Assembly (NCBI GenBank): GCA_000004985.1
Contig: GG738877.1
Source: Naegleria gruberi
Taxonomy: Eukaryota
Length of the DNA stretch: 64,000 bases
Direction: 5' to 3' (one strand)
In this document: positions 16,261 through 32,983 of the stretch, in pieces
How positions within the stretch are numbered: the first letter of the stretch is position 1
Layout: each line of letters starts with the position of its first letter
Position numbers and translations under genes: made by a program
Notes under the pieces: model-generated
The model's database searches: none
What the model was told of the DNA's origin: nothing
The model's input: the letters and a program-made list of their open reading frames with translations, nothing else

Positions 16261-18792
16261 ATGAACTCTAAACAGCAAAAGGATTTGAAATTTATTTTTA
16301 GATCACAAAAAAATAGCACACAAATGACAACAGAAGCAACAACATTACTTCCTGATTATGTTTTGAGAGCCGAGTGTAAGGGACATATTGATCAGTGTCG
16401 TACGATTTGTGCTAATCCACTTGTGGATGGAGGTATTGTCACAGGATCATTGGATTGTACAGTGAAAACATGGGCTCCTAATCCAAATTATAAGGAGGAA
16501 CAAACTAATATCGAAAATACAATGTTTGATGGTGAGGAATTGAACAATGCTAGAAAGCAAAGTGAATATCAATGCTCTTTGACAATGGTTGGACACGAAA
16601 AATTCATCACATCTATTGATTATCTTCCTGATCATTATGTAGTTTCCGGATCACACGACAAATCACTCATTGTTTGGAATGTTGTTGATGGAACTCCAGT
16701 GAAGAGTTATCCAAATGCTCATAGCAATGCAGTCAGTTGTTTATCTGTTGACAAATATACAAACACTATAATTTCAGGTTCTTGGGATAAGTAAGTACTT
16801 TTAGTTTTTAAAAAATCGATTTATTCACACTTAACAGATCTGCAAAGACATGGCATTTTGATAAGGATGCAGCCATTTCCGAATTGAAGGGACATGAACA
16901 AAACGTTTTGTGTGTTCTAGGCTTACAAAATGGTATTATTATCACTGGTAGTGGCGATGGAAGTATTAAATTCTGGGAAAATGGAAAGGAAACTCGTGAC
17001 ATTGCTGCTGCTCATTCATCATGTGTTAGATCTCTCAAAGAATTACCAGGTATTGGATTTTTATCAGCATCAAATGATGGTACTGTTAAAACCTGGACTT
17101 TACAAGGAGATTGTATTGGACATATTCAAGCACACAATACATTAGTTTATTCTGTTGAAGTAGCACCATCAGGAGAAATCTTGACAGCCAGTGAAGATAA
17201 AACTGTTAAAATTTGGAGAGGTGATTCTTTGGTACAAACCATTGAACACCCAGGATGTGTCTGGCAGGTTGTTTGTCTTCCAAATGGTGATATTGCTACA
17301 GCTTGTTCTGATTGTGTTGCCAGAGTATTTACTAAAAATCCAGAAAAGGTTGCCAATCCACTAATTATTCAAAGCTTTAATGATAATATTGCAAATTCAA
17401 AGAAAAAGAAGAGTGGAGTTGATCCAACTAAATTGACTACAGAATTAGCCTTGCAAAATACAAAGGGTACATCAGATGGTGAAATCAAACTTGTCAATAA
17501 TAGTGGTATTCCAGAAGCTTATTCTTGGAATGCTGCTCAACAAAAGTGGGATAAACTTGGTGAAATTACAGATGGACCAGGTGTAGGAGATGGATTCTCT
17601 CAAAGAACTTTCTACAATGGTAAAATGTATGATTACGTTTTCGATGTAGAACTTGAACATGGAAGTGGAATGAAGACTTTCAAACTTCCATATAATAAGG
17701 GTGATAACCCATATTTTGCTGCTCAACAATTTATTTGGGATAATAATCTTGGACAAAACTATTTGGAACAAATTGCTCGTTTCGTTATGGATAATGCTGA
17801 TGCTCATGATACTGTACCATCAGACTTTGTTGCTGGAGATCCTTATACTGGTCACCAAAGAGAAACTTTCGCTGCCAAGCGTCCAGGTACTGAATCAAAC
17901 CCAACTACTTCCTCTCCATTCTCTCAAGAACAAGATAAATATCAAAAGGAATTAGAAGAAAGAGAAAGACAAAAGAAGGTCAAACATTTCCCAGCTACCA
18001 CCAAGGTCTTTGATCAAGCCAACTATGATGGTATCCTTAAAAAGCTCAATGAATTTAATGAAAATGTAAAGACATCTGATGCATCTCTTGCTCTCTTACC
18101 AACTGAATGCACTACTTTGACACAATTATGTACAATTCTCAAGGCCGGTCAAGGTGAAAAAGTCACTTTAGCACATGTTGCTGTTGTTGAAAAAGATGCT
18201 TAACTGGCCAATTGAAAAAGTTTTCCCAGCTGTAGATTTATTCAGATTATTGATTTTAGCCAACCCAGTTGCTAATCATTACTCTGAACAATATAAGAAT
18301 GGCACCAATATTTTGATCAAATTGGTAACCTTGTGCTTTAACCCAACAACCACATACGCTGCTTTGAAGATGCTGGCTTTTAGAGCTTTAGCTAACATGT
18401 TCTATACACAACAACTTAAATTCATTATTTCCAAGCATGCCCAGATCGTCATTGACAATGCTGCTAAATCTGTTGATACGACCAATGCCAACATGAGAGC
18501 AGCCTATTCATACTTTTTGCTTAATACTGCTGTCAGTATTCACACAAACACTCAATCAGATGCATTGAAAGAGAAACTCTTGGCCTTAATCATCCAAGGT
18601 ATTCCTGATGAAACAGATCACAATATCCTGTATGACTTGTTGTGTGCTGCTGGTACAGTTTTGACAGGAGCTAGCGAATCTATAAAGGCTATTGGAAAAC
18701 AACACATTCAGACATTTGCACAAAAATCAGCCAATCCAACAGCTAGAGTAGCAGCTGCTGCTTTCCAAGTTGTTTCCCTGTTAAACCAATAA
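16261..18792 (+). CDS. PLAA/Doa1/Ufd3 homolog (WD40 + PFU + PUL domains). Exons 16261..16790 and 16838..about 18160, then a frame discontinuity near 18160-18200 before the PUL-domain part 18172/18196..18792.
   Basis: WD40 N-terminus (LRAECKGHIDQCR..., SGSWDK). The GTAAGT intron 16791..16837 (47 nt) restores the frame (..SGSWDKSAKTWHFDKDAAISELKGHEQ). The PUL start LNWPIEKVFPAVDLFRLLIL lies in a +1 frame relative to the PFU part (see findings). Confidence 0.75.
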
Positions 18793-18836: not shown

Positions 18837-20196
18837 TTATTCGATTCTCAGTAAATACTCTGATTGAAAAGCCATTGTTACAAAATTTAGATCCTTGTCA
18901 GCTTCAGCTGTTTTCCCAATTCCATTAAGCAATTGAGATCTAAACTCAATTAACGTTAGGAGTTTGTATTCATTTTCAACTGCAGATCCATCAATATTCT
19001 TAATTCCTTGATCAACAATGGAAATAGCGTCTTCAAGTGAATTTGAAGAGCATGCTTGTGTAATGTAAATTGTATAATTTTTTGGGTATTTCTTGCTTAA
19101 TTCCTCTAATTCTTCCTTGAATTTTTGTTTCGAATAGGCTTTATAAGGATTATTCCTTAGCATTTTTTCCAGAGCCGAGATTCGTTCAACTTCCATTACT
19201 TCCACCTGATCAGGGTTTGTGACAAATTTCAATACTGTCTCACTATCTTCCACAATCTGAGCGTAATTATCCGTTCTAGCATTTGTAGACATTCTGTTAG
19301 AGTAAACAAGTATATAGTTAGAGCAATTTTCAACAGCTTTACCTAAATATTTAAGTGCTGTTTCAGATTCCGTGTTAATATAACAACATCCAATATTGTT
19401 ATAGCATAGTGCTCTTCCCACCTTGAGTATTCTTTCTTTATGCTCTGGATAGTAAAAATTTGGAACATTACAACCATTTTCCAAGCTTGTGATTGCATTT
19501 TCAAATTCTTTGATTGCATCAGCATATAAATCAATATCCATCATAACACAACCAGCGTTGAAGATTGAAAAGAATGGTGTAAAAATATCAAACAATGAAT
19601 ACATTGTTTCTGCCATATTTCTTGATATCGAATAAAATGATTGATAATATTCCAATACTGTTTCCTTTTCAATTTTAAAAGCACTCAAATATAAATCTTT
19701 AGATTTTCTATAATTTTGTGCAACCTATTATTATTTAATTTCAATATGAAAGTAAATTAAAAACTGTTGTAATATTATATACATACCTCCTCTATATATC
19801 CATCACATAACAAAGTCCAAAATGGATGTCCTCTACAAACGAATTTTGTGATCGTGACAGCCCGAAGCATTTCCTTTTGATTACTTGTCTGAAAATACAG
19901 TAGTGCTCTCTTATAATAAGCCTCTATTAAATTAATAATAATACCAATATAATTCCTATCATCACTCCGAACTAAAACTAACCTGGTTGGAATGGGCATA
20001 AATCAATAGCCTTCAATAATTCATCATGTGCTGCTTTAAAATTCCTTTCAAACCGAACGGAATCAACAGAAATCATCACTTGACGATACTTTTTTCCGAT
20101 TTCTATTAATTCCTCCTCTTTCCAATCTTTTAGAGATGGTGCTCCATTGATCAATCCAGTTTCAGCGATTGGAGGAGCCAATCCAATGTGTTGCAT
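18837..20196 (-). CDS. Hypothetical TPR-like/helical-repeat protein. Three exons (minus strand): 19983..20196, 19787..19923, 18837..19724.
   Basis: ATG at 20196 follows an 8-A run. The GTTAGT donor plus ..ttaatag acceptor give a 59-nt intron that reconciles ORFs 19978..20196 and 19775..19999. The GTATGT donor plus ..aataatag acceptor give a 62-nt intron joining ORF 18837..19688. Both junctions are in frame. Confidence 0.6.
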
Positions 20197-20250: not shown

Positions 20251-23200
20251 TTACAATAAATGAGTGATTACTTCCTTGCCACTTCCCTTGATGAGTAATA
20301 TTTTGGAGGAAATATTTTGAGTGAGATGTTTCAAACATAGTACATAATCCAAATTTGAAAGATTTGATGTTAATGAGGGAAGGTTTACAATGACAAGTTG
20401 TGTATCTTTTGGAGTGGAATGTTGTCGAATGATGGTATTGATTCTTGATGAGGTATTCAAATAGTCAGTAATGGTCAGGTTGGGAACATTCGAATATTGA
20501 GTACTCAATTCGTCAGTTGGGGTTGTTGGATTATTTTCAATATTAATGGAAACTTCATCTGCATTTTGTTGCGGTGTCGATGGAAAATTGAAAACCAGAG
20601 AATCTAATCCTTCATGATACGACATGGATCTCACATCTCTAAAGATGGACTTGTTAATTTTGCTTGAGGGTTTCAACATTCGTTCTCTTTCTCTTTGGTC
20701 ATGTGTCACAACGAATGGAGAAACATCGTGTGGTCTCATGTAGAGAACGTGACACTCTGCTTCAAATCTTAAATGATATAGGATATCGTGAACTCCTTCC
20801 TTAATCATTTCTAAACTAGAAGTATCATCAACAACAGTATAGATTCGTATTTTGCACTTTCTCCAAACTTTGTGTTTTTGGAGTAAGAAAGTTATGAGTA
20901 ATTCGAGTCCTCCTTCATAAATAATCCAATAGAGATCTATGAATCCACATTGTTCTTCCTCTCCAAATTCTCCCTTAGCTATAATAACAGCTTTTCTACT
21001 AATTTCTGCGTATTTTAACATTTCAACAAAGTTTCTAGCACTGATCTTGTCATCACTCATTGGGAATCCAGAAACAATTGTATTGGGAGTTAGAGGACCC
21101 AATCCACAATTCTGAATCAAATGATTGATACCCTCCTGAAAATTCTTAGCCACAATGACTTGAGAAAATCCAGTAATTGACTTCTCTTTCATTTTCAGGG
21201 AAAGGGCAAGTTGTTCCTTTCGAGCAATCTTGAACTTTTTCTTGTAATTTCCTTCAATGATGGCTGCAACTACACACAGACCTTGTCCCTTCTTGAGTTG
21301 GTTTGCAACATTGAGAATATCAGCATGTGAAATGGTATTGTTTGGAAGAATCTTTACGAGACACAAGAGTTGAGGTCTCCAATTCGACTTCTCGTGATAG
21401 GAACTGGTGGAGGAGTTAGGGTTTGTTTCACATGAATAGAGAGCATTGAGGGCAGTTTGCAATTTAACTCCACTCATAGCATCGCCAAATGCATTGGTTT
21501 CATTACTGACCTCAATAAGAATGTACAACAAGAGGCCAATGATGGCACATAACAGAGTCCAATACCATCCAATTAAAAACATGCAAATAGCACATACAAA
21601 GAATCCAAATACCCCTAACGACCAATGATAATACATCCACCTAGGCCTCCAATTAGGGCTAATACTGGCAACAAAAGTCGAAATATTGAGGAAAGCAAAT
21701 GAGAAGAGAATGAGCATGGCAATAAACGTTGAGATACTTTCCAAATTACCTAGAAAAAGGGGGATGATAGCAAGGAGAGCAGAAAATAAAGTAGCCTTCC
21801 TCATATTCACTGAACCCTTGCTTGTTAAATAGTGCAATGGAATGAATGAAATAATATTCTCGTCAACAATGGCTTGTACCACTCGAGGTGCAACCACAAG
21901 AGCTTGGATTCCTTCTCCCAATATTGCAATCAACATGCCAACTTTTACAATATAGGTTCCAATCGATAAACCAAAATCTGGAAAGGCAACCAGAGCAAAA
22001 TAAGCTGTATTCTCTCTCATCTCATCTCTCTTTCCAACAAAGCTCAACAGAATGAAAATTAGTACATACACAAAAGTGGAGGTAAGCAGTGAGGCAATAG
22101 TTCCAATAGGAATATTTCTTTGAATATGTTTAACATGCCCTGATCGATTGATTCCTGCCAAAATTCCAACTACACTTGGAAATATGACAGCCATCACTGA
22201 AAAGAAATCTTGTCCATGCTGGAATTGAGGTGGAAAATTTGCAACAAAATTATTCCACTTTGCTGATGTTATATGATATTCTGTTTTGACAGTTACAAAA
22301 CATCCAATGATAAATAACAGAATTGTAATGAATGTTGCAATAATAAAGATCAATTCAAATCTTACAACATGTCTGAAACCAATGAAAACAAGTAGGAATA
22401 TTAAAAATAGGAATCCAATGGCTAGAATAATTAAATCCCAGTAAGGATGTTGTAAATCAGAATCTATCATTTTGAAATACGGATAGTATATTCTGATGGT
22501 TGACATTAATAAATCTGCAGCTGCAAATGAGTGAAGGGACAATAGGAAAATGAAACCAACAAAATAAATCAGACCCAAACTTCCAGCAAATTGATTTCCA
22601 AGCACTCTTGACATAATGGCTATCGTTCCACCAGATTTTAACAATCCATTTGTAACTACACTTGTTAAGCTTAACCATGTTAATATAGCACAAATTACTG
22701 ATATGAAAATATACAAGAGGGAGAATGCCAATCCAGCATTTGCCAAAATCCAAGGTACTTTCAAGAAAAGAATAGTACCAAGCACTGAAGAAATGCAAGG
22801 AATATAAACTCCCTCAATTAGTCCATACTTTTTCTCTTCTTTTGGTTTGGTATTTGGTGAAATAGCAGCAGTACTGGAAGAAGGAGGAATTTGATTGGAA
22901 GGAGATGTTATCGATTCTTGTTGTAGAGAAACCACAGAACTTCTTCTCTTTTCCAGAGTTTGAGACATTCTCGAAAGTGGATCAGTGGAAATAATTTCAT
23001 TGAGGGTACTTTTAGATTTTTCATCTTGTAAAATGTTTACAATAGATGGTCTATTGTAAAACCCTTTCATTTCTTTGTCCAAATTTGAAATAGGTATAAT
23101 ATCGCTTTCCTTAAAACTTGTTTGGGAAATTGCATCCTCATCCTCTGTATGTATAGATAAATCATCACCACCAGAAATTACATTATCTAAATCCCACTTT

Positions 23201-23535
23201 TCCATCAAATCAGTTGTCTTTACACTATCAGCATCACTCAAATTCTCCGATTGTGAATAATCAGTACTAATCTGATTTGGTGGAGGAGAGGGTATTCTAA
23301 CATTTGATTCTTCATTCCATCTCAAAGATTTAGAACCAATAACAGGTTCTGCACTCGTTGCCTCGGCCTTTCTTAAAATCGATGAAGGGGAAGGCCTCAA
23401 AGTGTAACTATCCAATGTATTGTTATCAATTACATTGGTATTATTACTCTCATGAATCTGGGCAGAGTTTATCAAGTCTGGTGTGCTAATCGACCGTCTG
23501 TGTTGATGGATTGGTTGAGGTGATTGTGGCTGCAT
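20251..23535 (-). CDS. SLC12 cation-chloride cotransporter (KCC/NKCC family), 1094 aa, single exon.
   Basis: Long ORF with 12 predicted transmembrane segments. Characteristic CCC segments (GGTIAIMSRVLGNQFAGSLGLIYFVGF, the AAPRVVQAIVDENI region) and a large cytosolic C-terminal domain. ATG in an A-rich context. Confidence 0.85.
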   Translation of the reverse strand: MQPQSPQPIHQHRRSISTPDLINSAQIHESNNTNVIDNNTLDSYTLRPSPSSILRKAEATSAEPVIGSKSLRWNEESNVRIPSPPPNQISTDYSQSENLSDADSVKTTDLMEKWDLDNVISGGDDLSIHTEDEDAISQTSFKESDIIPISNLDKEMKGFYNRPSIVNILQDEKSKSTLNEIISTDPLSRMSQTLEKRRSSVVSLQQESITSPSNQIPPSSSTAAISPNTKPKEEKKYGLIEGVYIPCISSVLGTILFLKVPWILANAGLAFSLLYIFISVICAILTWLSLTSVVTNGLLKSGGTIAIMSRVLGNQFAGSLGLIYFVGFIFLLSLHSFAAADLLMSTIRIYYPYFKMIDSDLQHPYWDLIILAIGFLFLIFLLVFIGFRHVVRFELIFIIATFITILLFIIGCFVTVKTEYHITSAKWNNFVANFPPQFQHGQDFFSVMAVIFPSVVGILAGINRSGHVKHIQRNIPIGTIASLLTSTFVYVLIFILLSFVGKRDEMRENTAYFALVAFPDFGLSIGTYIVKVGMLIAILGEGIQALVVAPRVVQAIVDENIISFIPLHYLTSKGSVNMRKATLFSALLAIIPLFLGNLESISTFIAMLILFSFAFLNISTFVASISPNWRPRWMYYHWSLGVFGFFVCAICMFLIGWYWTLLCAIIGLLLYILIEVSNETNAFGDAMSGVKLQTALNALYSCETNPNSSTSSYHEKSNWRPQLLCLVKILPNNTISHADILNVANQLKKGQGLCVVAAIIEGNYKKKFKIARKEQLALSLKMKEKSITGFSQVIVAKNFQEGINHLIQNCGLGPLTPNTIVSGFPMSDDKISARNFVEMLKYAEISRKAVIIAKGEFGEEEQCGFIDLYWIIYEGGLELLITFLLQKHKVWRKCKIRIYTVVDDTSSLEMIKEGVHDILYHLRFEAECHVLYMRPHDVSPFVVTHDQRERERMLKPSSKINKSIFRDVRSMSYHEGLDSLVFNFPSTPQQNADEVSINIENNPTTPTDELSTQYSNVPNLTITDYLNTSSRINTIIRQHSTPKDTQLVIVNLPSLTSNLSNLDYVLCLKHLTQNISSKILLIKGSGKEVITHLL

Positions 23536-23621
23536 CTTTTTCTGTTTATTTTTTATTATTGGAAAATTGCTTTAAATGGTTGGCGCCAAATGTTATTAAA
23601 GAAATTGTAAAATGAAAAAAA

Positions 23622-25627
23622 ATGCCTTCTTCCAACAATCACAAGAATGAACGACCAATTGGCCTTCATGAGTTGTTTCAAAATTTAAATAGGATTGGCA
23701 AACAAAAGGTGAAGGAAAGATTTTTTGGAAGGTTGAAAACACTTTCTATTGATCCGATTGTGTGGGATGGAAACTCTGCAAATAATATCGTAGATGAACA
23801 AATTATGATTGATTGTTCATCATCTCCAACAGGACAACAAGAAGTAATTAATAGTATTGAACCTGGAGAAAAGATTAATGACTCGACGGGAGAAATTCAG
23901 AATGCAAACTCATCATCACTTGTGGAAATATTAACTTCATCATCTGTTCATTCGGAGGAGCCTTTGGAAATTAGTAGTGTGGAAGAAGTTGAAACCATAC
24001 TTGTTCAACCTACACAAATTGAGGATGTAGGACCAATAGATCCAACAATTTTGGCCCAACACAGTCACCAATATCCTCATCAAAGCTCAACTTTTAAAGG
24101 TTTCAAGGCAAGTGAATTTCAAAAAGCGGTTCTCGACCACTGCGATAAAGTTAGAGGAATACTCAAACATAGTACTGGTTTGATAGTTTTAGCCACAGGA
24201 TTAGGTAATTATTCTCAATATTTGATTTAATCCATTGAGTAGGTAAAACTATTCTTGTTATTTTAGATATTGAACGAGAACTCACAAGGTTGAAGGATAC
24301 TAACGACTTTAAATCCTTTAAATTACTATTTCTTGTACACTCAAAGGTAATTAGAGATGGCACCTACCAAAAATTCAAAACTCAATTTTGTACGGATTTA
24401 GAAAGTGAATGGGATTTTACTGACTCTGATTTTCTAAATATCACAGAGAATGAGACACAAAAGACTATTGATTCAAAGATGAAAAGGGCAAAATTTATAT
24501 TTTGTTTATTTCAATCATTCGATAAGATTTCATCAATCAAATGTACCCATTGTGTAATTGATGAGGTACACCACGTTGTTGCCCAAACATATAATAAGGT
24601 CTTTACACAACTATCCAATTTACCATCTAATCGTTATATGCTAGGGTAAGTATGGAAATTATCCTTTTAATTAATCCAGCCATCTAGCATGACTGCAACT
24701 CTCATTCACAGAGATGATCCAACTGGTGAGAATTTGAAAAAATTATTTAAGGATATTGTCTATGTTGATTTGCCTTGGAGATTAGCTAATAATCTTGGAT
24801 TTTTCCCACCAGTCGAATATCTAGAATATTTGCCATCAACAATCAACTCGTCTTTGGACATTTTAACTTACCAACAAATATTTAAAGAAGCTTTTGATAT
24901 TTACAACAATCCAAAGAGACAACTTCCAAACTTTATTAACAAACTTGAGAAATCCCTCATTCAATTAGGAATGAACACTGACGAGCAAGTGAAGAAAAAA
25001 CTGACACCAGAAAGTGTAACCAACGTTCTCTTTCAATTCTTGCAGGAACAAGTGAATGCAGGACTTGCCGCCAAGAAAAAAATCATAATTGTACGTAATA
25101 TCTCATGTATTTCCAAACTAGAACCCTGTTAGTTCGCTAATAGTTGTGAAAATGCAGACCAAATAGAAGGTCTCATCAACAAGAAATCCAAAACATCTGT
25201 CCTTGCGTTAAAATGCTCATCTGTACATTATAAGAAAGGTACTAAACAAACTAAGCAGATACTTGAGGATTTTGAAACAGGAAAGTTGAATGTTTTAGTG
25301 AATGTAATGATGGTTAGTGAAGGTTATGACGTAAAAGACGTGGATTGTTTGGTTTTGGCAAGACAAACCGAATCTGAAATTGTTTTCTTACAACAACTAG
25401 GAAGAGCACTCAGAAGAAGTACAAACAAGACTGTAATTGTTATTGACCTAGCATTGAATCTTAGAAAAAGATGGAAACGACTCTTTAATGATGAATTCCA
25501 AAATGAAGAGGAGCTTAAAAGGATGATCACCGAGTTTTGGCAAGGTATGTATGATTCTGATGTCATCTCTAACCAATTAAATTCAGTCGAAAACTTTATT
25601 GGAAATCCAAGCTCCCTTATACAATAG
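23622..25627 (+). CDS. SF2 DEVH-box helicase, XPB/ResIII-like. Four exons: 23622..24204, 24243..24645, 24688..25090, 25133..25627 (about 628 aa).
   Basis: Splicing was chosen to restore helicase motifs. Motif I ATGLG|KT spans a 38-nt intron, with GKT encoded by ggtaaaact just after the acceptor. Motif II is DEVHH. Motif III LG|GMTATLIHRDD spans a 42-nt GTAAGT intron. Motif IV KKIII|FANS spans a 42-nt GTACGT intron that removes the in-frame TAG. Motifs V-VI are MVSEGYDV...QQLGRALRR. Confidence 0.75.
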
Positions 25628-25843
25628 AAGAATTGACTGTTAATGGCTCGTGAATTGTAAACATCACTAATGGCACTATGTAGGTACTCATTCCGTTTCT
25701 GTGGAAGGTTACACAACGATGGCAATTTTGTCTGCGATGTATGACGTTTAGTGACAAAGTGGAACGAGTCTATGTGCAAGAATTTCGCTGCATGTAGTTA
25801 GTAAGGCAATGACATTCACAAGACTAAATACACAGAAGAAAAA

Positions 25844-28800
25844 ATGTCTCGCAATAATGTCCACAATGGATCCACTGGTTGGACTCGTCGAGTAACCAAT
25901 CATCCAATGGACCACTCTTCCTCTTCTTCATCGTATAGTAATGGATCACCTGATCAACAACAGCAACAACAAGGAACACTTCCTCCTCCCCTACCACCAA
26001 GACGAGCAACCACAATTTCAACAAGACAGCAAGGGATTGAAATATCGAACGGAAATTCATCAACAAATAATACTTTAGTTTCTCAATTTGGTAATAGAAG
26101 TGATTTTTCTAGTAACATTCTTACAAGAAACAAATACGAACCCCATTCATCAACCGAGAGTAACAACAATCAATCTGCCTTTAATAATGAGAGTTATCAA
26201 AGTTATGCAGGTGTTGATGATCTAAATAGTACTTCTTTCAATAGATTTGAAACAAATCATCCATCTAACCAAACAAATGCTCCACCTAGCATTCCACAAA
26301 GGAAACCCAAATACCATTCACCCTCTCTGCTCAACAAATCTCCTCCTCCACCAATACCTCAAAAATCTATTAACCACATCCAACATGATTCTCCTTCAAA
26401 CAGCTCACCAACCTCTCCAAAATTCCTCAATAGAAATCCTCCCCCACCAATTCCAGGATCCCTCAAAGGGATAGACACTGACATTCGTTTAAAGGATGAT
26501 GAACAAAAGGAGGAGGTATTACCCAAACGTCAAGATATTGTGTCCTCTTCCATCAACATCAACTTTTCGGGTGATAGCACTGATGAGAACCATACGAAAC
26601 CAAAGAAAAATCGACCACCATCCATTCCATCATACTCTAGAGGATTTAATTCTGGTGCTGCTAATAGTAATTATTCTTCTATTGATCAAAGTTTGACTGG
26701 TAATAGTGCTGTTACAACAACTCCACCACCTTTGCCAATCAGAAAGATTGTTAACGATAAGAAACTTCTCGACTCACCAAACAGTGTAAATAGTGTTGGA
26801 AGTAATAGTAGTAGTTGCAGCTCATCTCTCAGTGATTCGTGCAACATTCTCAGTTATTTACATTCCAAACAGGGAGGAAATTTGAATATGGATTACCTAG
26901 ATACAGGCGACGAAGGTTCTCTGATGCAAGATGTGGAGTCAGAAGGAAATGATGAGTTTAGTTTTCCAAGCAATTCATATGAGGCAGAAAACGATCTGTC
27001 ATCACCTGGAAATGGTCAATCAGCCAAACCAATCGATTTTTCAGTAGACGAGGCACTCTTCAGACGAGTCAACTCAAAAGTGAAAACACTCTCTTTAAAT
27101 GGCATTTCTCGTTCTTCTTCATTGACTAGAAAAACATCTAGAACCCTTCACTACTCTTCACAAAACAAATCACACAACACCTCCTTTGTTGAATATCAAC
27201 AACAACATAATCACTCACCAACTGCTGCTTACACCTCTTCCGATCAATTTGGAAGTAGTAGTAATTCAACCAGCACAACAATTTTACCATCCGAAAGAAT
27301 TGAACAAGCAATGGAAATTGAAACGAAAAACAAACCTTGGTCACAAACAGATAAGACCTTGTCAGCTGAGGAAGAAGAATTATTGGCAAATTCAAGAGTT
27401 TCTCAACCTCATCTTCTTCAAGCCTACAAAGTTTTTAACACACCATTCCATATTATGAAACGAGTACCTGTAAAATATATGCGAGCACCTTTCCAGCCTA
27501 CTTTTGATGAAAACGATGGAATTGACCATAGTCATAATTATTGTGATAATTCAGAATCTTCTGTTTCTTCAGCACCAAAACAATCTTCTTCCGACTCCAG
27601 TGATGATGAATCGTCAACTAATACTGAAGAAGAAAGTATTACCACACCAAGAAATAGAAAGAGTTACTTTTTGAAATTGTCAGAAATTGATAAAATTTCT
27701 CTTGGTCAAACAGAAGATTCAGACCATCACACTATTCAGCAATCTCCTAGAAATAGTGTAACACCTAGAGCATCAATAAGAAGTAAAACAATTATTGGTA
27801 TGATAGGAGGAAACACGGAAAAGAAGGCAGTTGACGGTTTTGATGAAATTCAAGTTTTGGAAGCAAAGAAAAGTCTTGTCGAATTTGCCAAATATTCTGC
27901 TGGTAAAAAGAAGACTGACATTATTGAAAATATTGAACCAAAGAATGGAACTGTAATGGTAGTTAAAAACCCAGGATTAGATGCTGTGACAGAGACCATT
28001 ACTTCAAAAACACGTTTGATGAGTTGTTTAAAACCTGATTACATGTTCAAACCTTTGGAAGCTTCAATGTGCCAAAGAGTTTCTGATTTAGCTTATCCAG
28101 TTAAAAGAAAGACCAAATTCTTCCTTCAATGTACAAGTTTAAGATTTGAAAATATTCAAATGAAAGATAGAGAATTATTATTCTCATCAGTTGCCTTATA
28201 CGATATTCAATATGGTAGAAAATTATCAGAAGACTACCATTTCCATTTATTGCCTAATCAACAATTAAGCGATCTTCCACCTCTATTCAGAGATGAACTC
28301 AAAATTTATGAAGATGCAAGAGATATTTATTCTTCAATAATAGTTTCTCCAAAAAAGTTATTCACTGTTAGTTATCCAAATGACGAGGTCTATCTCGTAG
28401 CAACAATCTATAGAATTCCTACATCATCTATCCATGAGGCTGTTAAAATGTATTCTAAAGAAAATAAGAATATTGATAAGTGGTCTGATCAATACAATCA
28501 ACTTAAGGCCAAGCTAATTAGATTCAGACAGCCATTTTTATTTGGATTTACATCTTTATTTGTTAAGGAAATGATCAATGTTAAAGGGAAACAGGTTGAA
28601 TCTTTCAAATTGGAAGGTTCAAGATATGACATCAAACCATTCTATGAAGTTGATGGCGATTTTAAAAATCCAGTAGATTTTGTGACAATTATTAGAAACT
28701 CAATCAAGGATAAGAAAATTAAGAATAATCAAGTTCAAGGATCTATGCTGTTCACTGCTGAACTTCTTTCAAATTCTAGTTCTCAAAGTAATTATGAAAT

Positions 28801-31800
28801 TCAGCAAAAAATCCAAAATTCTAAATCAAGATTCTTAACAAGTCAAGGATCGAGATCTGATTTGGATTCCTCATTTGGGTCCCCAAGCTCAAGCTCTATT
28901 CTCGGATCAAGTACAGCATTCAGCTCACCAAGATCTGTTAATGAAAGTATAATATCTAGTTATGAGCATGATGGAACTGAGAGCCTTGTAAATCAAGAAC
29001 AACTCAATCAAGTTCAAGAATTTCCACTCCTCTCCTCTAACTATCCTAATCTATCCATGCAAAATACTTTGTTTATTTATCCTCAAAGTTTTATTATTGA
29101 AGGTGCATCCTCAGCAAAGAACATTTTTGCTGAAGTTTATTTTAGAGAAACAGACACAGCTCCTCCTAAAGTTGAAGATATTGATGGAAAAGCTGAAAAA
29201 AGATTTATTGCTTGGTTAAAGAAGGAGAGAACAACTTCTTTAATAACTTCCCTTTCGGTCGATTCGAGACAGCAAATATTATTGGATGAATTTAGATTGG
29301 AACTTCCAATGTATCCTATGGAAAAGCACCATTTATTATTTGTCTTTTACCATGTTGATATTGACAATAAGCATTCAAAGAAATTGGAATATGCAAATAG
29401 TTCCTTCGATTCAAGAAAAGAATTCTTTTCAACATCTGATAGAGCTATTATTGGATATGCTTTCCTCCCACTCACTAAGAGTATTCAACCAGATGAATGT
29501 GAGTACACTTTGAAACACAACCTTATCTACTTGCCTGATTGTAATGATGATATTACAATCTACAAGAAGGACTCTTTTAAGAGTAATTATTTGTCTGAGA
29601 ATAGTCTCAAACCTCTAAAGAGTTCAAAAATCAAAGTTAAAACCAATTTAGTATCGACTATACACCCTAGAGATCCAACTCTTGCATTATTTTATGCTTC
29701 TCTGACTGATCTCTACACAGCCGCTCCTGGTAAAACAATTGAAATATTGGATTTCTTGGAAGGTTTTGTTCTTCAAAAGTTTAACGAAATTGAATTCTCA
29801 GAGTTGTTACCTCACTTCCCAATTTTAATGAACCTACTTTTTGAATTGATGTGCAGAGTTTCTGAACTTACAACTGATGAACAACAAATTGAAAGCTTGG
29901 AAAGCTCTGTCTTTGAATCATTACTTGTTTGCCTAAGAGGATCCTACCACTTTACCAAACATCACACAAGAAGTAACAAGTATTTTACTAGTTATGTTAA
30001 ATTCATGTTTGAAAACATCAAGGGTAATCCACTTTTCTTGAATTTACCAAGAATAATAACAAGATTTATTTATGTTCCAGAAGGCAAGGAACTTGAGCCA
30101 GCAGAAGAAGGCAAATATATTAAGGAAATGAACAGGCTCAGTAAAAAGTATGGCAAGTCAGTCATAAAGAAAACTACCAGTTTGGAAAAGGATAAAAAGG
30201 AATACGAAAAGAAAAAGAATGAAGTATCTCCTCATGATCCTATCAGATTTTCTTGGTTCCTTTTCGATATTACTATCAAGAGTATAATTCTTTCAGGAGT
30301 GCCTAGCTCAGAAGATCACCACACTATGGATTACTTTACAGAAGTACCTGAAGACCTATTCTTCATATCATTGAAACAATTAATTGACAACTTTAATACA
30401 TGTGTCAACAAGTTAATGTTGAGTGATGGTACTGGAAGAAATAACATTGGGTTGAATGGTAATAGAAACTTGGCATTGTTCATTAGAGATTTGATCCCTA
30501 TTCTCAAAAGAGAACATGTGCTCAAACTGGTAAAGAAATACTTTAAATTCTTTAATGGATCGGATGAGAAACAACTTCGTTTGAAGAGTGAATTCATTAC
30601 TATCCTCAGTGACTATGAGCATTGGATTCCTATCAACAATTTATCATTGGAAGGAGGAAACTTTGGTGTCAAACATTTCAGCACGTTATTCTATCAAATT
30701 GTGGACAGTAAGAAGGATAGATTAATTAAGAAGATGACAAAGGTCTTACTCAACCACCTTTGTAAACTTGATTTTGACTCTAGATATGTTCATGAAAACT
30801 CAAAAGCCAATGTTTGTGAAATTTATCTCATCTTTGTTGATTTGTTCTTTGAAAAAGATGAGTACCTCACAATTTTCCAAGATGATGAGCTGTTTGTTGT
30901 ATTTTCATGCATTTTGTTGTGGATAATGAGAGGCTTATCAAAGCAAAGGTTAATTTCTTGGTTCAAGGTTCTACCATTCTTCAAGATTTTGAATATTTTG
31001 AACTTTTTGGACTATGTAACTATTGCTATTAACAATCTCGATTATGATCCAAAATCTAGAGTTGAAGATGATAGATCTCTTCGTACCGAAGTTTCCCTTG
31101 TTATTAATTACTTGATTTCTGTAATTGTATCAAATGTCACCTCAGACGGAGGATTTATTGATGAGCTGCAAATGCAAAGCGACAATATTGATCTTCTCTC
31201 TAATATCCAACTTGCTGATCCAAGTTTACTGAGACAAAGACAACTTGTATCCTACTATGAGGCAAAAAGCTTAAAGCAACAAGCTCCTCTTATTGGTCTA
31301 TTCTTTAGACAGATTTGTAGAGTTTTGATGAACAGTGTTCTTCAATTAACCTTGAGAAAGGAATTAGACTTGGTATATATTGTATTTAGAGAATCACTTT
31401 TACCTCTTATCAAAGAATGTACCAGTAAACTTGTGGTAAATGAGCTCTATGATCCAAACATTCCAAAGAAACAGAGAATTCCTATTGCTGAAAAGAGACA
31501 AGTCGAACAAAAGTGGAGATGGTTATTGGGTGCTGTTATGCTTCACTCAGGATTTACATCTGAAGAAGAGCAAAATGCTTATCCAATTGTCAAAGAATGT
31601 CAAAAACTTTTATTAGAACCTTTCAATAATGAACTGTTCAATGTGCAATTAGATAGTACCGATATTGAGGATGGTGATTTGCTATTGAACAATGAAGAGC
31701 ACAATATCAAAGCAGGTACATTCAAAAAACTTGTCGAAAGATTGCTTGACGTGGATACAAATCAAATTGACAAGGAGAGTCACAAGTATGGAGAAATCTT

Positions 31801-32983
31801 CCTCCTCACTTGCGCCTCTTTCACTCAACCAATTAATTTACTCACCCAACTTATTGAAATATTTAAAACAGCCGAAGAAACAGTCATCAAGCTCAGAGTT
31901 GAACAATTTATCAGCAAGTGGGTTAGATTCGGATTCCATGATTTTGACAATAATGTTATTGCCAAGCTTGTTACATTCCTTTCCAATATTTCTGGAGTTA
32001 CTCAAAAGAAGATTAAGAAATACATTATCAAACACTTCTTGAATGTCAAGATGGATATTTACACAGATGTTACAGCAGTACCACCAAATCCTCACATTCC
32101 AAAGAATATTCCAAAAGAAAAATTGGAAGAACCCCAAATGGATATCAGAAAGTGGAAGGAGGCCAAAAAGTTTACCAAACAATTAGATAATCCATTTGAT
32201 GTCAAGTTTGAACTTTTGGATTGGCCAAGTTTAGAAATTGCTAGACAATTGACAATCATTGAGGCAAAACTCTTCAAAAAGATTGAACCAAAAGAATTTT
32301 TCGGCTCAGCTTGGACTGACAAAGAGTACAAGCAAGAACTTGCACCAACACTGTGTGCAATAACTGAGAGAACTAACAATGTTAGTTTCTGGGTTAGAAA
32401 CAAGATACTTTTGGAGCCAAATTTGGAAATTAGAAAGAAAATTATGAAGAAATTTGTGGACATCCTTAGAGAGTTGAAAGAACTTCGAAACTATACCTCA
32501 ATCATTCAAATCACATCTGCATTTAATTCTGCCGAGATTCACAGACTGAAAAAGACAAAAGAAGGACTCAGCAAGCAAGATTTGGAACTTGTTGAAGAAT
32601 GCAGTAATTTGGTGAACAATAATTCCAAGGCATTGAGAGAACAATTGGAACGAGAAGTTATCATTAATGGTGCCCCAGCAGTTCCTGTTGTAGCAATCTA
32701 CTTTACTGATTTGGTATTTATTGAAGATGGTAATTTAGATTATTTTGAGCACAAATTGAACAAGAACAAGAAGCTAATCAACTTCCAAAAGAGAAGACTC
32801 TACTATAATACTGTCAATACTATCAAGACTCTTCAAACCAAATCCAAATACATTCTACAACCTCTTCCTTATCTTCACTATGTACTCAAGGAAGAAATTG
32901 TGCAAAATATCAAGACAGATGAGAAGGCCCTCTTTGATTTATCTCTCAAAGTTGAACCAAGAGCTCCAGCTACTAACAAATAA
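25844..32983 (+). CDS. Ras guanine-nucleotide exchange factor (RasGEF N-terminal domain plus CDC25-homology domain), 2379 aa, single exon.
   Basis: The C-terminus has a RasGEF_N-like block (TFKKLVERLLD...) and a CDC25 catalytic domain (LLDWPSLEIARQLTIIEAKLFKKIEPKEF..., ITSAFNSAEIHRLKKT, VPVVAIYFTDLVFIEDGN). The N-terminal 900 aa are S/N/P-rich with repeated PPPxP motifs. Confidence 0.85.
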   Translation: MSRNNVHNGSTGWTRRVTNHPMDHSSSSSSYSNGSPDQQQQQQGTLPPPLPPRRATTISTRQQGIEISNGNSSTNNTLVSQFGNRSDFSSNILTRNKYEPHSSTESNNNQSAFNNESYQSYAGVDDLNSTSFNRFETNHPSNQTNAPPSIPQRKPKYHSPSLLNKSPPPPIPQKSINHIQHDSPSNSSPTSPKFLNRNPPPPIPGSLKGIDTDIRLKDDEQKEEVLPKRQDIVSSSININFSGDSTDENHTKPKKNRPPSIPSYSRGFNSGAANSNYSSIDQSLTGNSAVTTTPPPLPIRKIVNDKKLLDSPNSVNSVGSNSSSCSSSLSDSCNILSYLHSKQGGNLNMDYLDTGDEGSLMQDVESEGNDEFSFPSNSYEAENDLSSPGNGQSAKPIDFSVDEALFRRVNSKVKTLSLNGISRSSSLTRKTSRTLHYSSQNKSHNTSFVEYQQQHNHSPTAAYTSSDQFGSSSNSTSTTILPSERIEQAMEIETKNKPWSQTDKTLSAEEEELLANSRVSQPHLLQAYKVFNTPFHIMKRVPVKYMRAPFQPTFDENDGIDHSHNYCDNSESSVSSAPKQSSSDSSDDESSTNTEEESITTPRNRKSYFLKLSEIDKISLGQTEDSDHHTIQQSPRNSVTPRASIRSKTIIGMIGGNTEKKAVDGFDEIQVLEAKKSLVEFAKYSAGKKKTDIIENIEPKNGTVMVVKNPGLDAVTETITSKTRLMSCLKPDYMFKPLEASMCQRVSDLAYPVKRKTKFFLQCTSLRFENIQMKDRELLFSSVALYDIQYGRKLSEDYHFHLLPNQQLSDLPPLFRDELKIYEDARDIYSSIIVSPKKLFTVSYPNDEVYLVATIYRIPTSSIHEAVKMYSKENKNIDKWSDQYNQLKAKLIRFRQPFLFGFTSLFVKEMINVKGKQVESFKLEGSRYDIKPFYEVDGDFKNPVDFVTIIRNSIKDKKIKNNQVQGSMLFTAELLSNSSSQSNYEIQQKIQNSKSRFLTSQGSRSDLDSSFGSPSSSSILGSSTAFSSPRSVNESIISSYEHDGTESLVNQEQLNQVQEFPLLSSNYPNLSMQNTLFIYPQSFIIEGASSAKNIFAEVYFRETDTAPPKVEDIDGKAEKRFIAWLKKERTTSLITSLSVDSRQQILLDEFRLELPMYPMEKHHLLFVFYHVDIDNKHSKKLEYANSSFDSRKEFFSTSDRAIIGYAFLPLTKSIQPDECEYTLKHNLIYLPDCNDDITIYKKDSFKSNYLSENSLKPLKSSKIKVKTNLVSTIHPRDPTLALFYASLTDLYTAAPGKTIEILDFLEGFVLQKFNEIEFSELLPHFPILMNLLFELMCRVSELTTDEQQIESLESSVFESLLVCLRGSYHFTKHHTRSNKYFTSYVKFMFENIKGNPLFLNLPRIITRFIYVPEGKELEPAEEGKYIKEMNRLSKKYGKSVIKKTTSLEKDKKEYEKKKNEVSPHDPIRFSWFLFDITIKSIILSGVPSSEDHHTMDYFTEVPEDLFFISLKQLIDNFNTCVNKLMLSDGTGRNNIGLNGNRNLALFIRDLIPILKREHVLKLVKKYFKFFNGSDEKQLRLKSEFITILSDYEHWIPINNLSLEGGNFGVKHFSTLFYQIVDSKKDRLIKKMTKVLLNHLCKLDFDSRYVHENSKANVCEIYLIFVDLFFEKDEYLTIFQDDELFVVFSCILLWIMRGLSKQRLISWFKVLPFFKILNILNFLDYVTIAINNLDYDPKSRVEDDRSLRTEVSLVINYLISVIVSNVTSDGGFIDELQMQSDNIDLLSNIQLADPSLLRQRQLVSYYEAKSLKQQAPLIGLFFRQICRVLMNSVLQLTLRKELDLVYIVFRESLLPLIKECTSKLVVNELYDPNIPKKQRIPIAEKRQVEQKWRWLLGAVMLHSGFTSEEEQNAYPIVKECQKLLLEPFNNELFNVQLDSTDIEDGDLLLNNEEHNIKAGTFKKLVERLLDVDTNQIDKESHKYGEIFLLTCASFTQPINLLTQLIEIFKTAEETVIKLRVEQFISKWVRFGFHDFDNNVIAKLVTFLSNISGVTQKKIKKYIIKHFLNVKMDIYTDVTAVPPNPHIPKNIPKEKLEEPQMDIRKWKEAKKFTKQLDNPFDVKFELLDWPSLEIARQLTIIEAKLFKKIEPKEFFGSAWTDKEYKQELAPTLCAITERTNNVSFWVRNKILLEPNLEIRKKIMKKFVDILRELKELRNYTSIIQITSAFNSAEIHRLKKTKEGLSKQDLELVEECSNLVNNNSKALREQLEREVIINGAPAVPVVAIYFTDLVFIEDGNLDYFEHKLNKNKKLINFQKRRLYYNTVNTIKTLQTKSKYILQPLPYLHYVLKEEIVQNIKTDEKALFDLSLKVEPRAPATNK

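What the first reader, a model, noticed from the sequence alone, without database searches (positions are those of the whole stretch)
23622..25627. XPB/ResIII-like DEVH helicase whose Walker A, motif III and motif IV are each encoded across a 38-42 nt intron
The four ORF-track pieces become a complete SF2 helicase only when three mini-introns are removed. ATGLG|KT spans a 38-nt intron, the shortest in the window, and the GKT is encoded by ggtaaaact immediately after the acceptor. LG|GMTATLIHRDD spans a second intron. The third intron removes an in-frame TAG and gives the motif-IV-like KKIII|FANS. The motif set (GKT, DEVH, TAT, QxxGRxxRR) is XPB/Rad25- or type-III-restriction-like, not DEAD-box. 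The protein is short (about 628 aa) with a novel 190-aa N-terminus, so it is not canonical XPB. It may be an uncharacterised paralog or an old horizontal acquisition.
Basis: partly seen in the sequence, partly recalled or inferred. Interest (0 to 1): 0.6.

Follow-up and report, generated by a model that had tools for sequence, protein, structure and literature searches.

The report
Intron-split orphan helicase gene in Naegleria
This is a real, intact gene of the amoeba Naegleria gruberi for an uncharacterised ATP-driven DNA-motor protein, cut by four (not three) tiny introns. It belongs to a small protist-only helicase family whose nearest relatives are bacterial and phage restriction-type helicases. 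It is a sound gene-model correction, not a surprising discovery.

Summary
Removing them restores sequence that is contiguous in the genomic DNA of relatives. It splits the family's conserved C-terminal FWxVxNF motif. The protein is therefore 613 aa, not 628, and junction 2 reads YMLG|MTAT, not LG|GMTAT.

The window is Naegleria gruberi. The orthologue in N. lovaniensis is a 'hypothetical protein' in conserved synteny. It shares introns 2 and 3 at the same site and phase and lacks introns 1 and 4. A third Naegleria-like contig has only intron 3, and Acrasis has none. Introns of 38-64 nt are usual in this window.

The protein is a ResIII + Helicase_C SF2 ATPase with all motifs intact. It belongs to a small family found only in protists: Heterolobosea, Giardia, Skoliomonas-type metamonads and foraminifera. 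Every named member found carries an uninformative name. The closest characterised relative is the helicase module of the type IV restriction enzyme SauUSI, along with PHROG 16 phage helicases. XPB is only second tier, so the protein is not XPB.

The most likely function is a nuclear duplex-DNA translocase. That is inference, not a test. Interest is modest.

The parts
23622..24204 (+). Exon 1 (aa 1-194 plus the first base of G195). It starts at the ATG, and the MP start is conserved with N. lovaniensis. It holds the N-terminal helical motif, a disordered acidic linker, the Q-motif region and the first half of Walker A.
23664..23735 (+). N-terminal motif LHELFQNLNRIGKQKVKERFFGRL, predicted as helices 15-20 and 27-40. 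Conserved in heterolobosean relatives; weak or unalignable elsewhere in the family.
   Evidence: Alignment A1; AF2 model; tblastn to L001 and L002
24102..24134 (+). Q-motif-like segment FKASEFQKAVL. Q167 is nearly invariant in the family.
24189..24250 (+). Motif I / Walker A, LATGLG|KT, split by intron 1.
   Evidence: contiguous in L001, L002 and L003 DNA
24205..24242 (+). Intron 1: 38 nt, GTAATT...TTAAT...TAG, phase 1. Present only in N. gruberi among the loci compared.
24243..24645 (+). Exon 2 (aa 195-328 plus two bases). It holds KT of Walker A, motif Ia LFLVHSKVIRD and motif II VIDEVHH.
24554..24574 (+). Motif II, VIDEVHH (DEVH box). D301, E302, V303, H304 and H305 are invariant in the family.
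24646..24687 (+). Intron 2: 42 nt, GTAAGT...TTAAT...TAG, phase 2. N. lovaniensis has a 62-nt intron at the same site and phase. Absent in L002 and Acrasis.
24641..24718 (+). Motif III plus a RED-like motif, LG|MTATLIHRDD. The RDD aligns with RED of A. fulgidus XPB and RDD of S. tokodaii XPBII.
24688..25090 (+). Exon 3 (aa 329-463). It holds motif III, the end of RecA1 (DLPWRLA..GFFPPVEYLEY), a helical insertion at about aa 390-452, and the first half of motif IV.
25091..25132 (+). Intron 3: 42 nt, GTACGT...TAG, phase 0, with an in-frame TAG. The same site and phase are used in N. lovaniensis (60 nt) and in L002 (37 nt). Absent in Acrasis.
25073..25144 (+). Motif IV strand, KKKIII|FANS, split by intron 3.
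25133..25544 (+). Exon 4 (aa 464-600 plus one base). It holds RecA2 with motif V VLVNVMMVSEGYDV (25292-25333), motif VI QQLGRALRR (25391-25417) and the basic helix LNLRKRWKRL (25454-25483).
25545..25586 (+). It splits the conserved C-terminal FW.V.NF motif. Absent in N. lovaniensis and Acrasis DNA.
25587..25627 (+). Exon 5 (aa 601-613, VENFIGNPSSLIQ, plus the TAG stop).

Best explanation
Window 23622-25627(+) is a functional, single-copy nuclear gene of Naegleria gruberi with five exons and four spliceosomal mini-introns of 38, 42, 42 and 42 nt. It encodes a 613-aa superfamily-2 ATPase of the ResIII/Helicase_C type.

The protein has these parts:
- a short N-terminal helical motif, conserved in heterolobosean relatives;
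- a disordered acidic linker of about 80 aa;
- two RecA-like lobes carrying intact motifs Q, I, Ia, II (DEVH), III (TAT followed by an RDD 'RED-like' motif), IV, V and VI;
- a helical insertion between the lobes;
- a family-specific C-terminal tail (basic helix LNLRKRWKRL, then FWxVxNF).

It is the N. gruberi orthologue of N. lovaniensis C9374_003281. It belongs to a small protist-only family seen in Heterolobosea, Giardia, Skoliomonas-type metamonads, foraminifera and one MMETSP transcript. The nearest outgroups are prokaryotic and phage restriction-type DNA helicases: the motor of the type IV enzyme SauUSI, PHROG 16, PbeA and type I HsdR.

Inferred mechanism (not shown): ATP hydrolysis in the cleft between the RecA lobes drives translocation along duplex or branched DNA, as in its characterised relatives. 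It has no fused nuclease or modification-reading domain, so it would act as a stand-alone nuclear DNA motor in repair, recombination or remodelling. The N-terminal motif and C-terminal tail would serve as partner or substrate-binding elements.

The placing of three introns inside helicase motifs has no functional meaning. It reflects ordinary intron turnover in Naegleria. By parsimony against intronless relatives, intron 3 is genus-wide, intron 2 is shared with N. lovaniensis, and introns 1 and 4 are N. gruberi-specific.

My confidence in the parts: gene structure about 0.9; family placement about 0.85; DNA-translocase function about 0.5.
For: Gene structure. All four introns have GT..AG ends with GTAnkT donors, and three have YTRAY branch-like motifs. 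The spliced product is 63-66% identical over 98% of its length to N. lovaniensis P0001. Junction peptides are contiguous in genomic DNA of relatives, and the shared introns have identical site and phase. Intronless ORF relatives P0004, P0005 and P0007 and contigs L084 and L085 agree. Other 38-64 nt intron candidates occur in the window.

Organism and synteny. The neighbouring ORF is exactly N. gruberi XP_002675623.1. The order SLC12(-) / helicase(+) / DOCK-RasGEF(+) is conserved in N. lovaniensis.

Family. Pfam ResIII scores 1.7e-17 and Helicase_C 1e-15. In a search of 1.84 billion protein representatives, about 35-40 scored above 300 bits, with a clear drop in score below them. The signature motifs TATLxHRxD, L[RK]x[RK]W and FWxVxxF are almost entirely confined to the higher-scoring hits. 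No extra Pfam domains occur in family members, while the prokaryotic neighbours carry nuclease, DUF3427 or HNH-repeat modules.

Not organellar. Giardia has this family, and from established knowledge its mitosomes carry no genome. That argues against a role dedicated to organellar DNA.
Against: No transcript evidence was available, so splicing is inferred from comparative sequence only. Intron 4 is in frame and stop-free, so its retention would still give a protein with 14 extra residues.

No biochemical data exist for any family member. SF2 cores of RIG-I, Dicer and Hef type (duplex-RNA or branched-DNA motors) also match at 1e-11 to 1e-19, so the nucleic-acid substrate is not settled. Localisation was not tested.

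The apparent absence of an N. gruberi gene model rests only on that model not appearing.
Confidence: 0.75

Rival explanations
1. It is a divergent XPB/Rad25 paralogue, a TFIIH-type DNA-opening translocase.
Against: The NCBIfam XPB model scores 24.6 bits against a cut-off of 610, and only over residues 285-375. Pfam ERCC3_RAD25_C and the XPB N-terminal domain do not hit. SauUSI scores 26 or more orders of magnitude better than any XPB. Eukaryotic XPB scores only 5e-10. An R-acidic-D motif after TAT is also present in SauUSI (RSD), so it is not diagnostic.
Confidence: 0.05
2. It is a duplex-RNA motor (RIG-I, Dicer or DRH-like) and not a DNA translocase.
Against: All the best matches are DNA motors: SauUSI, RadD, XPB, HsdR, PbeA and the PHROG 16 DNA helicases. 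There is no RIG-I-type insertion (Hel2i) or C-terminal RNA-binding domain recognisable by Pfam.
Confidence: 0.15
3. The 42 nt at 25545-25586 is not an intron, or is only facultatively spliced, and encodes a lineage-specific 14-aa insertion (GMYDSDVISNQLNS).
For: It is a multiple of three and stop-free. N. lovaniensis has no intron there. So nothing in the reading frame forces its removal.
Against: It has a canonical GTATGT donor, a CTAAC branch motif 18 nt from the 3' end and a CAG acceptor. Its length equals that of introns 2 and 3. It would break the FWxVxNF motif, which is uninterrupted in all 20 homologues whose C-terminus is present in the alignment, including a transcript-derived sequence and intron-poor Giardia.
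Confidence: 0.12
4. It is a recent bacterial or viral insertion, a contaminant, or a decaying pseudogene, and the 'introns' are disabling insertions.
For: The nearest characterised relatives are prokaryotic and phage helicases.
Against: The GC content equals that of the flanks. Synteny is conserved in N. lovaniensis. There are four precise GT-AG interruptions and no other frame defects. All catalytic motifs are intact. The closest viral and metagenomic non-family relatives are only 22-28% identical. The eukaryote-only clade scores about 300-760 bits, against 250 bits or less for prokaryotic hits.
Confidence: 0.03

Closest known systems
N. lovaniensis hypothetical protein C9374_003281 (P0001), with the unnamed protist family that includes Giardia 'Helicase-related protein', Acrasis kona AKO1_012650, Willaertia magna ABK040_013832, Skoliomonas-type metamonad proteins KAL0246165 / KAL0214444 / KAL0212662, and foraminiferal transcripts
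   Same: It is 63-66% identical over the full length to P0001. Synteny is the same, and introns 2 and 3 are shared. It shares the signature motifs TATLxHRDD, LNLR(K/R)RWKRL and C-terminal FWxVxNF, and the same domain layout with no accessory domains.
   Different: The N. gruberi copy has two extra introns (1 and 4). The acidic linker is not conserved in sequence. No family member has a known function.
Helicase/translocase module of SauUSI, a type IV modification-dependent restriction endonuclease of Staphylococcus aureus (PDB 7CLG); PADLOC mREase_IV
   Same: It is the best solved-structure match by sequence (phmmer 4.5e-21, family profile 3e-51). The match covers RecA1, RecA2 and the segment after motif VI. 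The motif set is the same, including TAT-x-R-x-D and QQLGRgLR.
PHROG 16 phage 'DNA helicase' and PbeA (PADLOC)
   Same: PHROG 16 is the strongest profile-library match to the single protein, at 8e-50 over residues 167-592. PbeA scores 4e-21 over residues 145-569.
   Different: These are prokaryotic and phage proteins. They lack the protist N-terminal motif and the RWKR / FWxVxNF tail. IMG/VR relatives are 28% identical or less.
XPB/Rad25/Ssl2 (TFIIH) and archaeal XPB
   Same: It has a ResIII-type SF2 core, a DExH box and a RED-like motif after motif III. Archaeal XPBs score 1e-21 to 7e-25.
   Different: There is no ERCC3_RAD25_C hit and no XPB N-terminal (DRD) hit. The NCBIfam XPB score is far below its cut-off. 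Eukaryotic XPB scores only 5e-10.
Type I restriction HsdR motor, RadD and Hef/FANCM
   Different: Sequence identity is 15-20%. The accessory domains differ (nuclease, zinc finger, ERCC4) and are absent here.

Membership tests
SF2 helicase, ResIII + Helicase_C architecture | Pfam ResIII (PF04851) and Helicase_C (PF00271) score above their gathering thresholds. | tested here: met
   ResIII scores 64.3 bits (cut-off 22.5). Helicase_C scores 58.3 bits (cut-off 23.5).
SF2 helicase, ResIII + Helicase_C architecture | Intact catalytic motifs I (GxGKT), II (DExH), III (TAT) and VI (QxxGRxxR). | tested here: met
   ATGLGKT, DEVH, TAT and QQLGRALRR are all present after splicing. They are invariant or nearly invariant in the family alignment.
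Protist orphan helicase family (N. lovaniensis C9374_003281 / Giardia 'Helicase-related protein') | Full-length similarity plus the signature motifs TATLxHRxD, L[RK]x[RK]W and C-terminal FWxVxxF. | tested here: met
   E-value 4e-243 with 98% coverage to P0001. All three motifs are present. Apart from a few isolated single-motif matches, they are confined to the high-scoring family hits among 208 proteins examined.
Protist orphan helicase family | Orthology supported by conserved gene neighbourhood within the genus. | tested here: met
   The order SLC12(-) / helicase(+) / DOCK-RasGEF(+) is found in both N. gruberi and N. lovaniensis.
XPB/Rad25 (TFIIH helicase) | A match to XPB-specific models (Pfam ERCC3_RAD25_C; NCBIfam repair_heli_XPB) at their thresholds. 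| tested here: not met
   ERCC3_RAD25_C gives no hit at E <= 0.1. NF045503 scores 24.6 bits against a cut-off of 610.
XPB/Rad25 (TFIIH helicase) | A RED motif after motif III. | tested here: inconclusive
   RDD aligns with RED of A. fulgidus XPB and RDD of S. tokodaii XPBII. SauUSI has RSD at the same place, so the feature is not specific to XPB.
XPB/Rad25 (TFIIH helicase) | An N-terminal damage-recognition domain and a thumb (ThM) insertion. | not tested
   No Pfam hit in the N-terminus. No residue-level structural superposition onto the XPB DRD or ThM was done.
SauUSI-type type IV restriction enzyme (mREase_IV) | A PLD-family nuclease domain N-terminal to the helicase. | tested here: not met
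   No PLD (PF13091) hit. The N-terminus is a short helical motif followed by a disordered linker.
SauUSI-type type IV restriction enzyme (mREase_IV) | A C-terminal DUF3427 target-recognition domain. | tested here: not met
   No PF11907 hit. The protein ends about 45 aa after motif VI.
SauUSI-type type IV restriction enzyme (mREase_IV) | A homologous helicase/translocase motor. | tested here: met
   Scores are 4.5e-21 (phmmer), 3e-51 (family profile) and PADLOC mREase_IV 3e-25.
DEAD-box RNA helicases | A D-E-A-D motif II and the DEAD Pfam model as the best N-lobe model. | tested here: not met
   Motif II is DEVH. Pfam DEAD scores 38 bits against 64 bits for ResIII.
Spliceosomal (U2-type GT-AG) introns | GT..AG boundaries, a 5' consensus, and precise restoration of a conserved reading frame. 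| tested here: met
   All four introns qualify. Restoration was checked against contiguous orthologous DNA.
Spliceosomal (U2-type GT-AG) introns | Removal from mRNA. | not testable with these tools
   No N. gruberi transcript data were reachable. Public RNA-seq exists under PRJEB23822, cited in PMC6142364.

The most novel reading that the evidence does not exclude
The gene represents a previously unrecognised eukaryotic helicase family. A restriction- or phage-type duplex-DNA motor would have been acquired early from prokaryotes, or spread among protists. It lost any nuclease or reader modules, gained its own N- and C-terminal elements, and was kept in anaerobic and free-living protists across at least Discoba, Metamonada and Rhizaria for a nuclear genome-maintenance or genome-defence role. 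In addition, the N. gruberi copy may be missing from the public protein set, and it carries two lineage-specific introns inserted into catalytic motifs. That would make it a clean natural case of recent intron gain.
Probability: 0.3. Interest if true: 0.45.

Novelty: new member of a known kind. Interest (0 to 1): 0.3.

Why it matters
The practical value is a corrected five-exon model, giving a 613-aa protein, for a gene whose product did not surface from the public N. gruberi protein set. It also shows that in-frame, stop-free mini-introns such as intron 4 are missed when a gene is read from ORF tracks alone.

Biologically, the work defines a compact helicase family restricted to protists, with diagnostic motifs and restriction-type bacterial and phage relatives. 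The family includes a Giardia member, where genetics is possible, so a functional study would be feasible.

The pattern of introns across Naegleria species and Acrasis (4, 2, at least 1, and 0) is a small, well-resolved data point on intron turnover in Heterolobosea.

None of this overturns current understanding.

Tried and rejected
1. Origin of intron 1 by tandem duplication of an AGGT-containing exon segment. By eye the intron resembled the start of exon 2. Local alignment of each intron to its flanking exons was no better than to random windows (intron 1: p = 0.32 downstream, 0.65 upstream). Rejected.

2. Giant-virus or viral origin. An IMG/VR scan found only phage-sized contigs, 28% identical or less. 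The PHROG 16 match is a distant one to a phage helicase family. There is no close viral relative.

3. Checking how N. gruberi annotates this locus. Neighbour P0070 is not on record in the contig index. The exact 627-aa and 613-aa products are not in the protein collection. No near-identical N. gruberi protein appeared. So the gene is probably unannotated or differently modelled, but this is unproven.

4. Willaertia genomic DNA is not on record, so its intron state is unknown.

5. The literature search for the Naegleria intron-length distribution yielded only a mean of 203 bp for N. gruberi, and a 30-bp minimum intron setting used for N. fowleri read mapping (PMC8296547). The local distribution was instead estimated heuristically.

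6. The afdb50 fold library was unavailable.

7. Extra domains in longer family members (P0072, P0088, P0081-83, P0087). Pfam finds none beyond ResIII and Helicase_C, so there are no fusion clues to function.

8. The metagenome scan added only two true family loci, L084 and L085. L084 matches in a single, essentially ungapped stretch, so it carries no intron at any of the four sites. L085 also matches as a single stretch.
Full report
**What is in the sequence**

The region 23622-25627(+) lies in AT-rich DNA. GC is about 34-35%, the same as the flanks. On an ORF track it shows four same-strand pieces.

The introns are 24205-24242 (38 nt), 24646-24687 (42 nt) and 25091-25132 (42 nt, with an in-frame TAG). 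This gives an open 627-codon frame carrying a full set of SF2 helicase motifs.

First, junction 2 reads YMLG|MTAT. The split codon gg|c supplies the G of LG, so there is no second glycine. Second, a fourth intron-like segment lies at 25545-25586. It has a GTATGT donor, a CTAAC branch motif 18 nt from its 3' end and a CAG acceptor. It is 42 nt, a multiple of three, and has no stop, so it cannot be seen on an ORF track.

**Are the introns real?**

The window is Naegleria gruberi. The neighbouring 1094-aa ORF (20254-23535, minus strand) is exactly XP_002675623.1 / NAEGRDRAFT_69257.

The spliced product matches a N. lovaniensis hypothetical protein (C9374_003281, 619 aa) at E = 4e-243 with 98% coverage. 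Gene order is conserved in that species: SLC12 transporter(-), helicase(+), DOCK/RasGEF(+).

I compared my protein with genomic DNA of relatives by tblastn.

| Locus | Site 1 (Walker A) | Site 2 (motif III) | Site 3 (motif IV) | Site 4 (C-terminus) |
|---|---|---|---|---|
| N. gruberi (window) | intron, 38 nt | intron, 42 nt | intron, 42 nt | intron, 42 nt |
| N. lovaniensis (L001) | none; LATGLGKTILVILDIEREL contiguous | intron, 62 nt, same codon and phase (GG\|A vs gg\|c) | intron, 60 nt, same phase-0 site | none; EFWNVENFVGDP contiguous |
| Naegleria-like metagenome contig (L002) | none | none | intron, 37 nt, same site | contig ends before the site |
| Acrasis kona (L003) | none | none | none | none |

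L002 is 71-72% identical to both Naegleria species. Acrasis kona reads as a single uninterrupted frame.

Several other relatives come from contiguous ORFs (P0004, P0005, P0007; contigs L084 and L085) or from transcripts (MMETSP P0010; foraminiferal EukProt entries). Their motifs are uninterrupted as well.

All 20 aligned homologues whose C-terminus is present read FWxVxNF-like sequence without the 14 residues that 25545-25586 would add.

So all four interruptions are precisely delimited introns. I put intron 4 at about 0.88. Because it is in frame and stop-free, only RNA can exclude facultative retention.

Mini-introns are not unusual here. A heuristic scan finds other ORF-restoring GT..AG segments of 38-64 nt in the window. 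A published N. fowleri analysis set its minimum intron length to 30 bp (PMC8296547).

**What the protein is**

Pfam gives ResIII (1.7e-17) and Helicase_C (1e-15). DEAD is weaker, and nothing hits in the first 160 residues. NCBIfam models all score far below their cut-offs. The XPB model gives 24.6 bits against 610.

The AlphaFold model was built on a 22-sequence family alignment. Mean pLDDT is 78 and the core is mostly above 90. It shows:
- two short N-terminal helices (residues 15-40);
- a disordered acidic linker (residues 51-132);
- RecA1 (about residues 140-377);
- a helical insertion (about residues 390-452);
- RecA2 (residues 461-568);
- two C-terminal helices and a terminal strand.

A profile search of 1.84 billion protein representatives finds only about 35-40 clusters scoring above 300 bits. 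Below them the score drops clearly, to a further large set of more distant helicases at about 255 bits or less; the few checked carry prokaryotic nuclease or DUF3427 modules. The motifs TATLxHRxD, L[RK]x[RK]W and C-terminal FWxVxxF are almost entirely confined to the higher-scoring hits.

Named members come from these groups:
- Naegleria, Willaertia and Acrasis (Heterolobosea);
- Giardia;
- the isolates GEM-RC1, TZLM1-RC and TZLM3-RCL, which from my own knowledge are Skoliomonas-type metamonads;
- the foraminifera Bolivina and Nonionella;
- one MMETSP transcript.

Those with a descriptive name are called 'hypothetical protein', 'Helicase-related protein' or generic 'superfamily II DNA or RNA helicase'. 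Longer members carry no additional Pfam domains. The nearest prokaryotic hits carry nuclease, HNH-repeat or DUF3427 modules.

**Closest characterised relatives**

Family profile against PDB sequences:

| Target | E-value |
|---|---|
| SauUSI helicase module (7CLG) | 3e-51 |
| RadD | 1e-25 |
| S. tokodaii XPBII | 7e-25 |
| A. fulgidus XPB | 1e-21 |
| Hef | 5e-19 |
| HsdR | 2e-17 |
| Dicer / RIG-I-like | 1e-11 to 4e-14 |
| eukaryotic XPB | 5e-10 |

Other libraries agree:
- PADLOC ranks mREase_IV (the SauUSI type) first and PbeA second.
- PHROG 16 'DNA helicase' matches at 8e-50.
- Foldseek ranks RadD, Hef, SauUSI, FANCM and XPB together.

The RDD after TAT aligns with the XPB RED motif. SauUSI has RSD at the same place, so this does not mark XPB membership.

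'XPB-like' is only true at the level of the wider ResIII assemblage.

**Origin**

A recent bacterial or viral insertion is excluded by four observations:
- the gene has spliceosomal introns;
- it sits in conserved synteny;
- its composition is native to the genome;
- non-family relatives in IMG/VR and in metagenomes are only 22-28% identical.

The protist members score as one coherent group with prokaryotic and phage outgroups. This fits an old acquisition, or an old eukaryotic gene with many losses. A proper phylogeny was not run.

**How it most likely works (inference)**

All the best-matching characterised relatives are ATP-driven motors on duplex or branched DNA. The catalytic motifs here are intact and conserved. 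The family is present in Giardia, whose mitosomes have no genome (established knowledge), which argues against a role dedicated to organellar DNA.

I therefore propose a stand-alone nuclear duplex-DNA translocase or helicase. Its family-specific N-terminal helices and basic/aromatic C-terminal tail would recruit partners or substrates. I put this at about 0.5. A duplex-RNA motor is the main functional rival, at about 0.15.

**Introns in motifs**

Three of the four introns fall within motifs I, III and IV. I see no functional implication. The pattern across species (4, 2, at least 1, and 0 introns) points to ordinary intron turnover. By parsimony, intron 3 is genus-wide and introns 1 and 4 are specific to the N. 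gruberi lineage.

An origin of intron 1 by tandem duplication was tested and rejected.

**Verdict**

This is a correct and careful first-stage observation that needed one more intron. It identifies an uncharacterised but conventional SF2 helicase of a small protist family. It is a new member of a known kind, and interest is about 0.3.

Noticed in passing
window 23612-23650 (+): An out-of-frame upstream ATG at 23612 opens a 12-codon uORF (MKKNAFFQQSQE*). It overlaps the helicase start codon at 23622 and might affect translation initiation.
   Followed up: no
L003 5013-6719 (Acrasis kona JAOPGA020000734.1): The annotated A. kona model (P0006, 574 aa) removes 45 nt as an intron. The genomic DNA is one open frame, and the removed piece encodes the conserved ...YSFSQSHFIFCLFQS segment. 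This is probably a false intron in the public annotation.
   Followed up: partly
P0002 (Willaertia magna ABK040_013832): The public model diverges from the family straight after motif V (…ESETVFIYLQFTTNWEGASKG…) and lacks motif VI and the C-terminal tail. It is probably an unrecognised intron or a truncated model. No DNA was available to check.
   Followed up: no
L001 8020-9067 (N. lovaniensis); window 25628-25843; L003 1-182: N. lovaniensis has a DcpS gene between the helicase and the DOCK/RasGEF gene. In N. gruberi the two genes are only 217 nt apart, and no DcpS is found anywhere in the window. Acrasis has a DcpS_C/HIT gene about 4.8 kb upstream of its helicase. One distant relative from a metagenome source (P0030) has DcpS_C/HIT Pfam hits fused to the helicase. 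This may be coincidence.
   Followed up: partly
window 1686-1737(+), 9236-9280(+), 16791-16837(+), 19725-19786(-), 43090-43153(-), 44466-44521(-), 55178-55221(-), 55486-55523(-): A heuristic scan finds further ORF-restoring GT..AG segments of 38-64 nt. Mini-introns are therefore the local norm, and the 38-nt intron is not uniquely the shortest. These candidates were not verified against homologues.
   Followed up: no
window 25844-32983 (+): A 2379-codon uninterrupted ORF matches the N. lovaniensis DOCK-C2/RasGEF protein. Its exact translation is not in the protein collection, so the public N. gruberi model probably differs in start site or in introns.
   Followed up: no
window 23622-25627 (whole gene): No N. 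gruberi protein covering this gene appeared in the 5.8-billion-sequence homology search. Neither exact product is in the collection, although the neighbouring N. gruberi protein is. The gene may be unannotated or mis-modelled in the public N. gruberi set.
   Followed up: partly
window 25324-25779 (-): A 151-codon antisense ORF overlaps the 3' end of the helicase gene and the intergenic spacer. It is low-complexity and has no support, so it is probably spurious.
   Followed up: no
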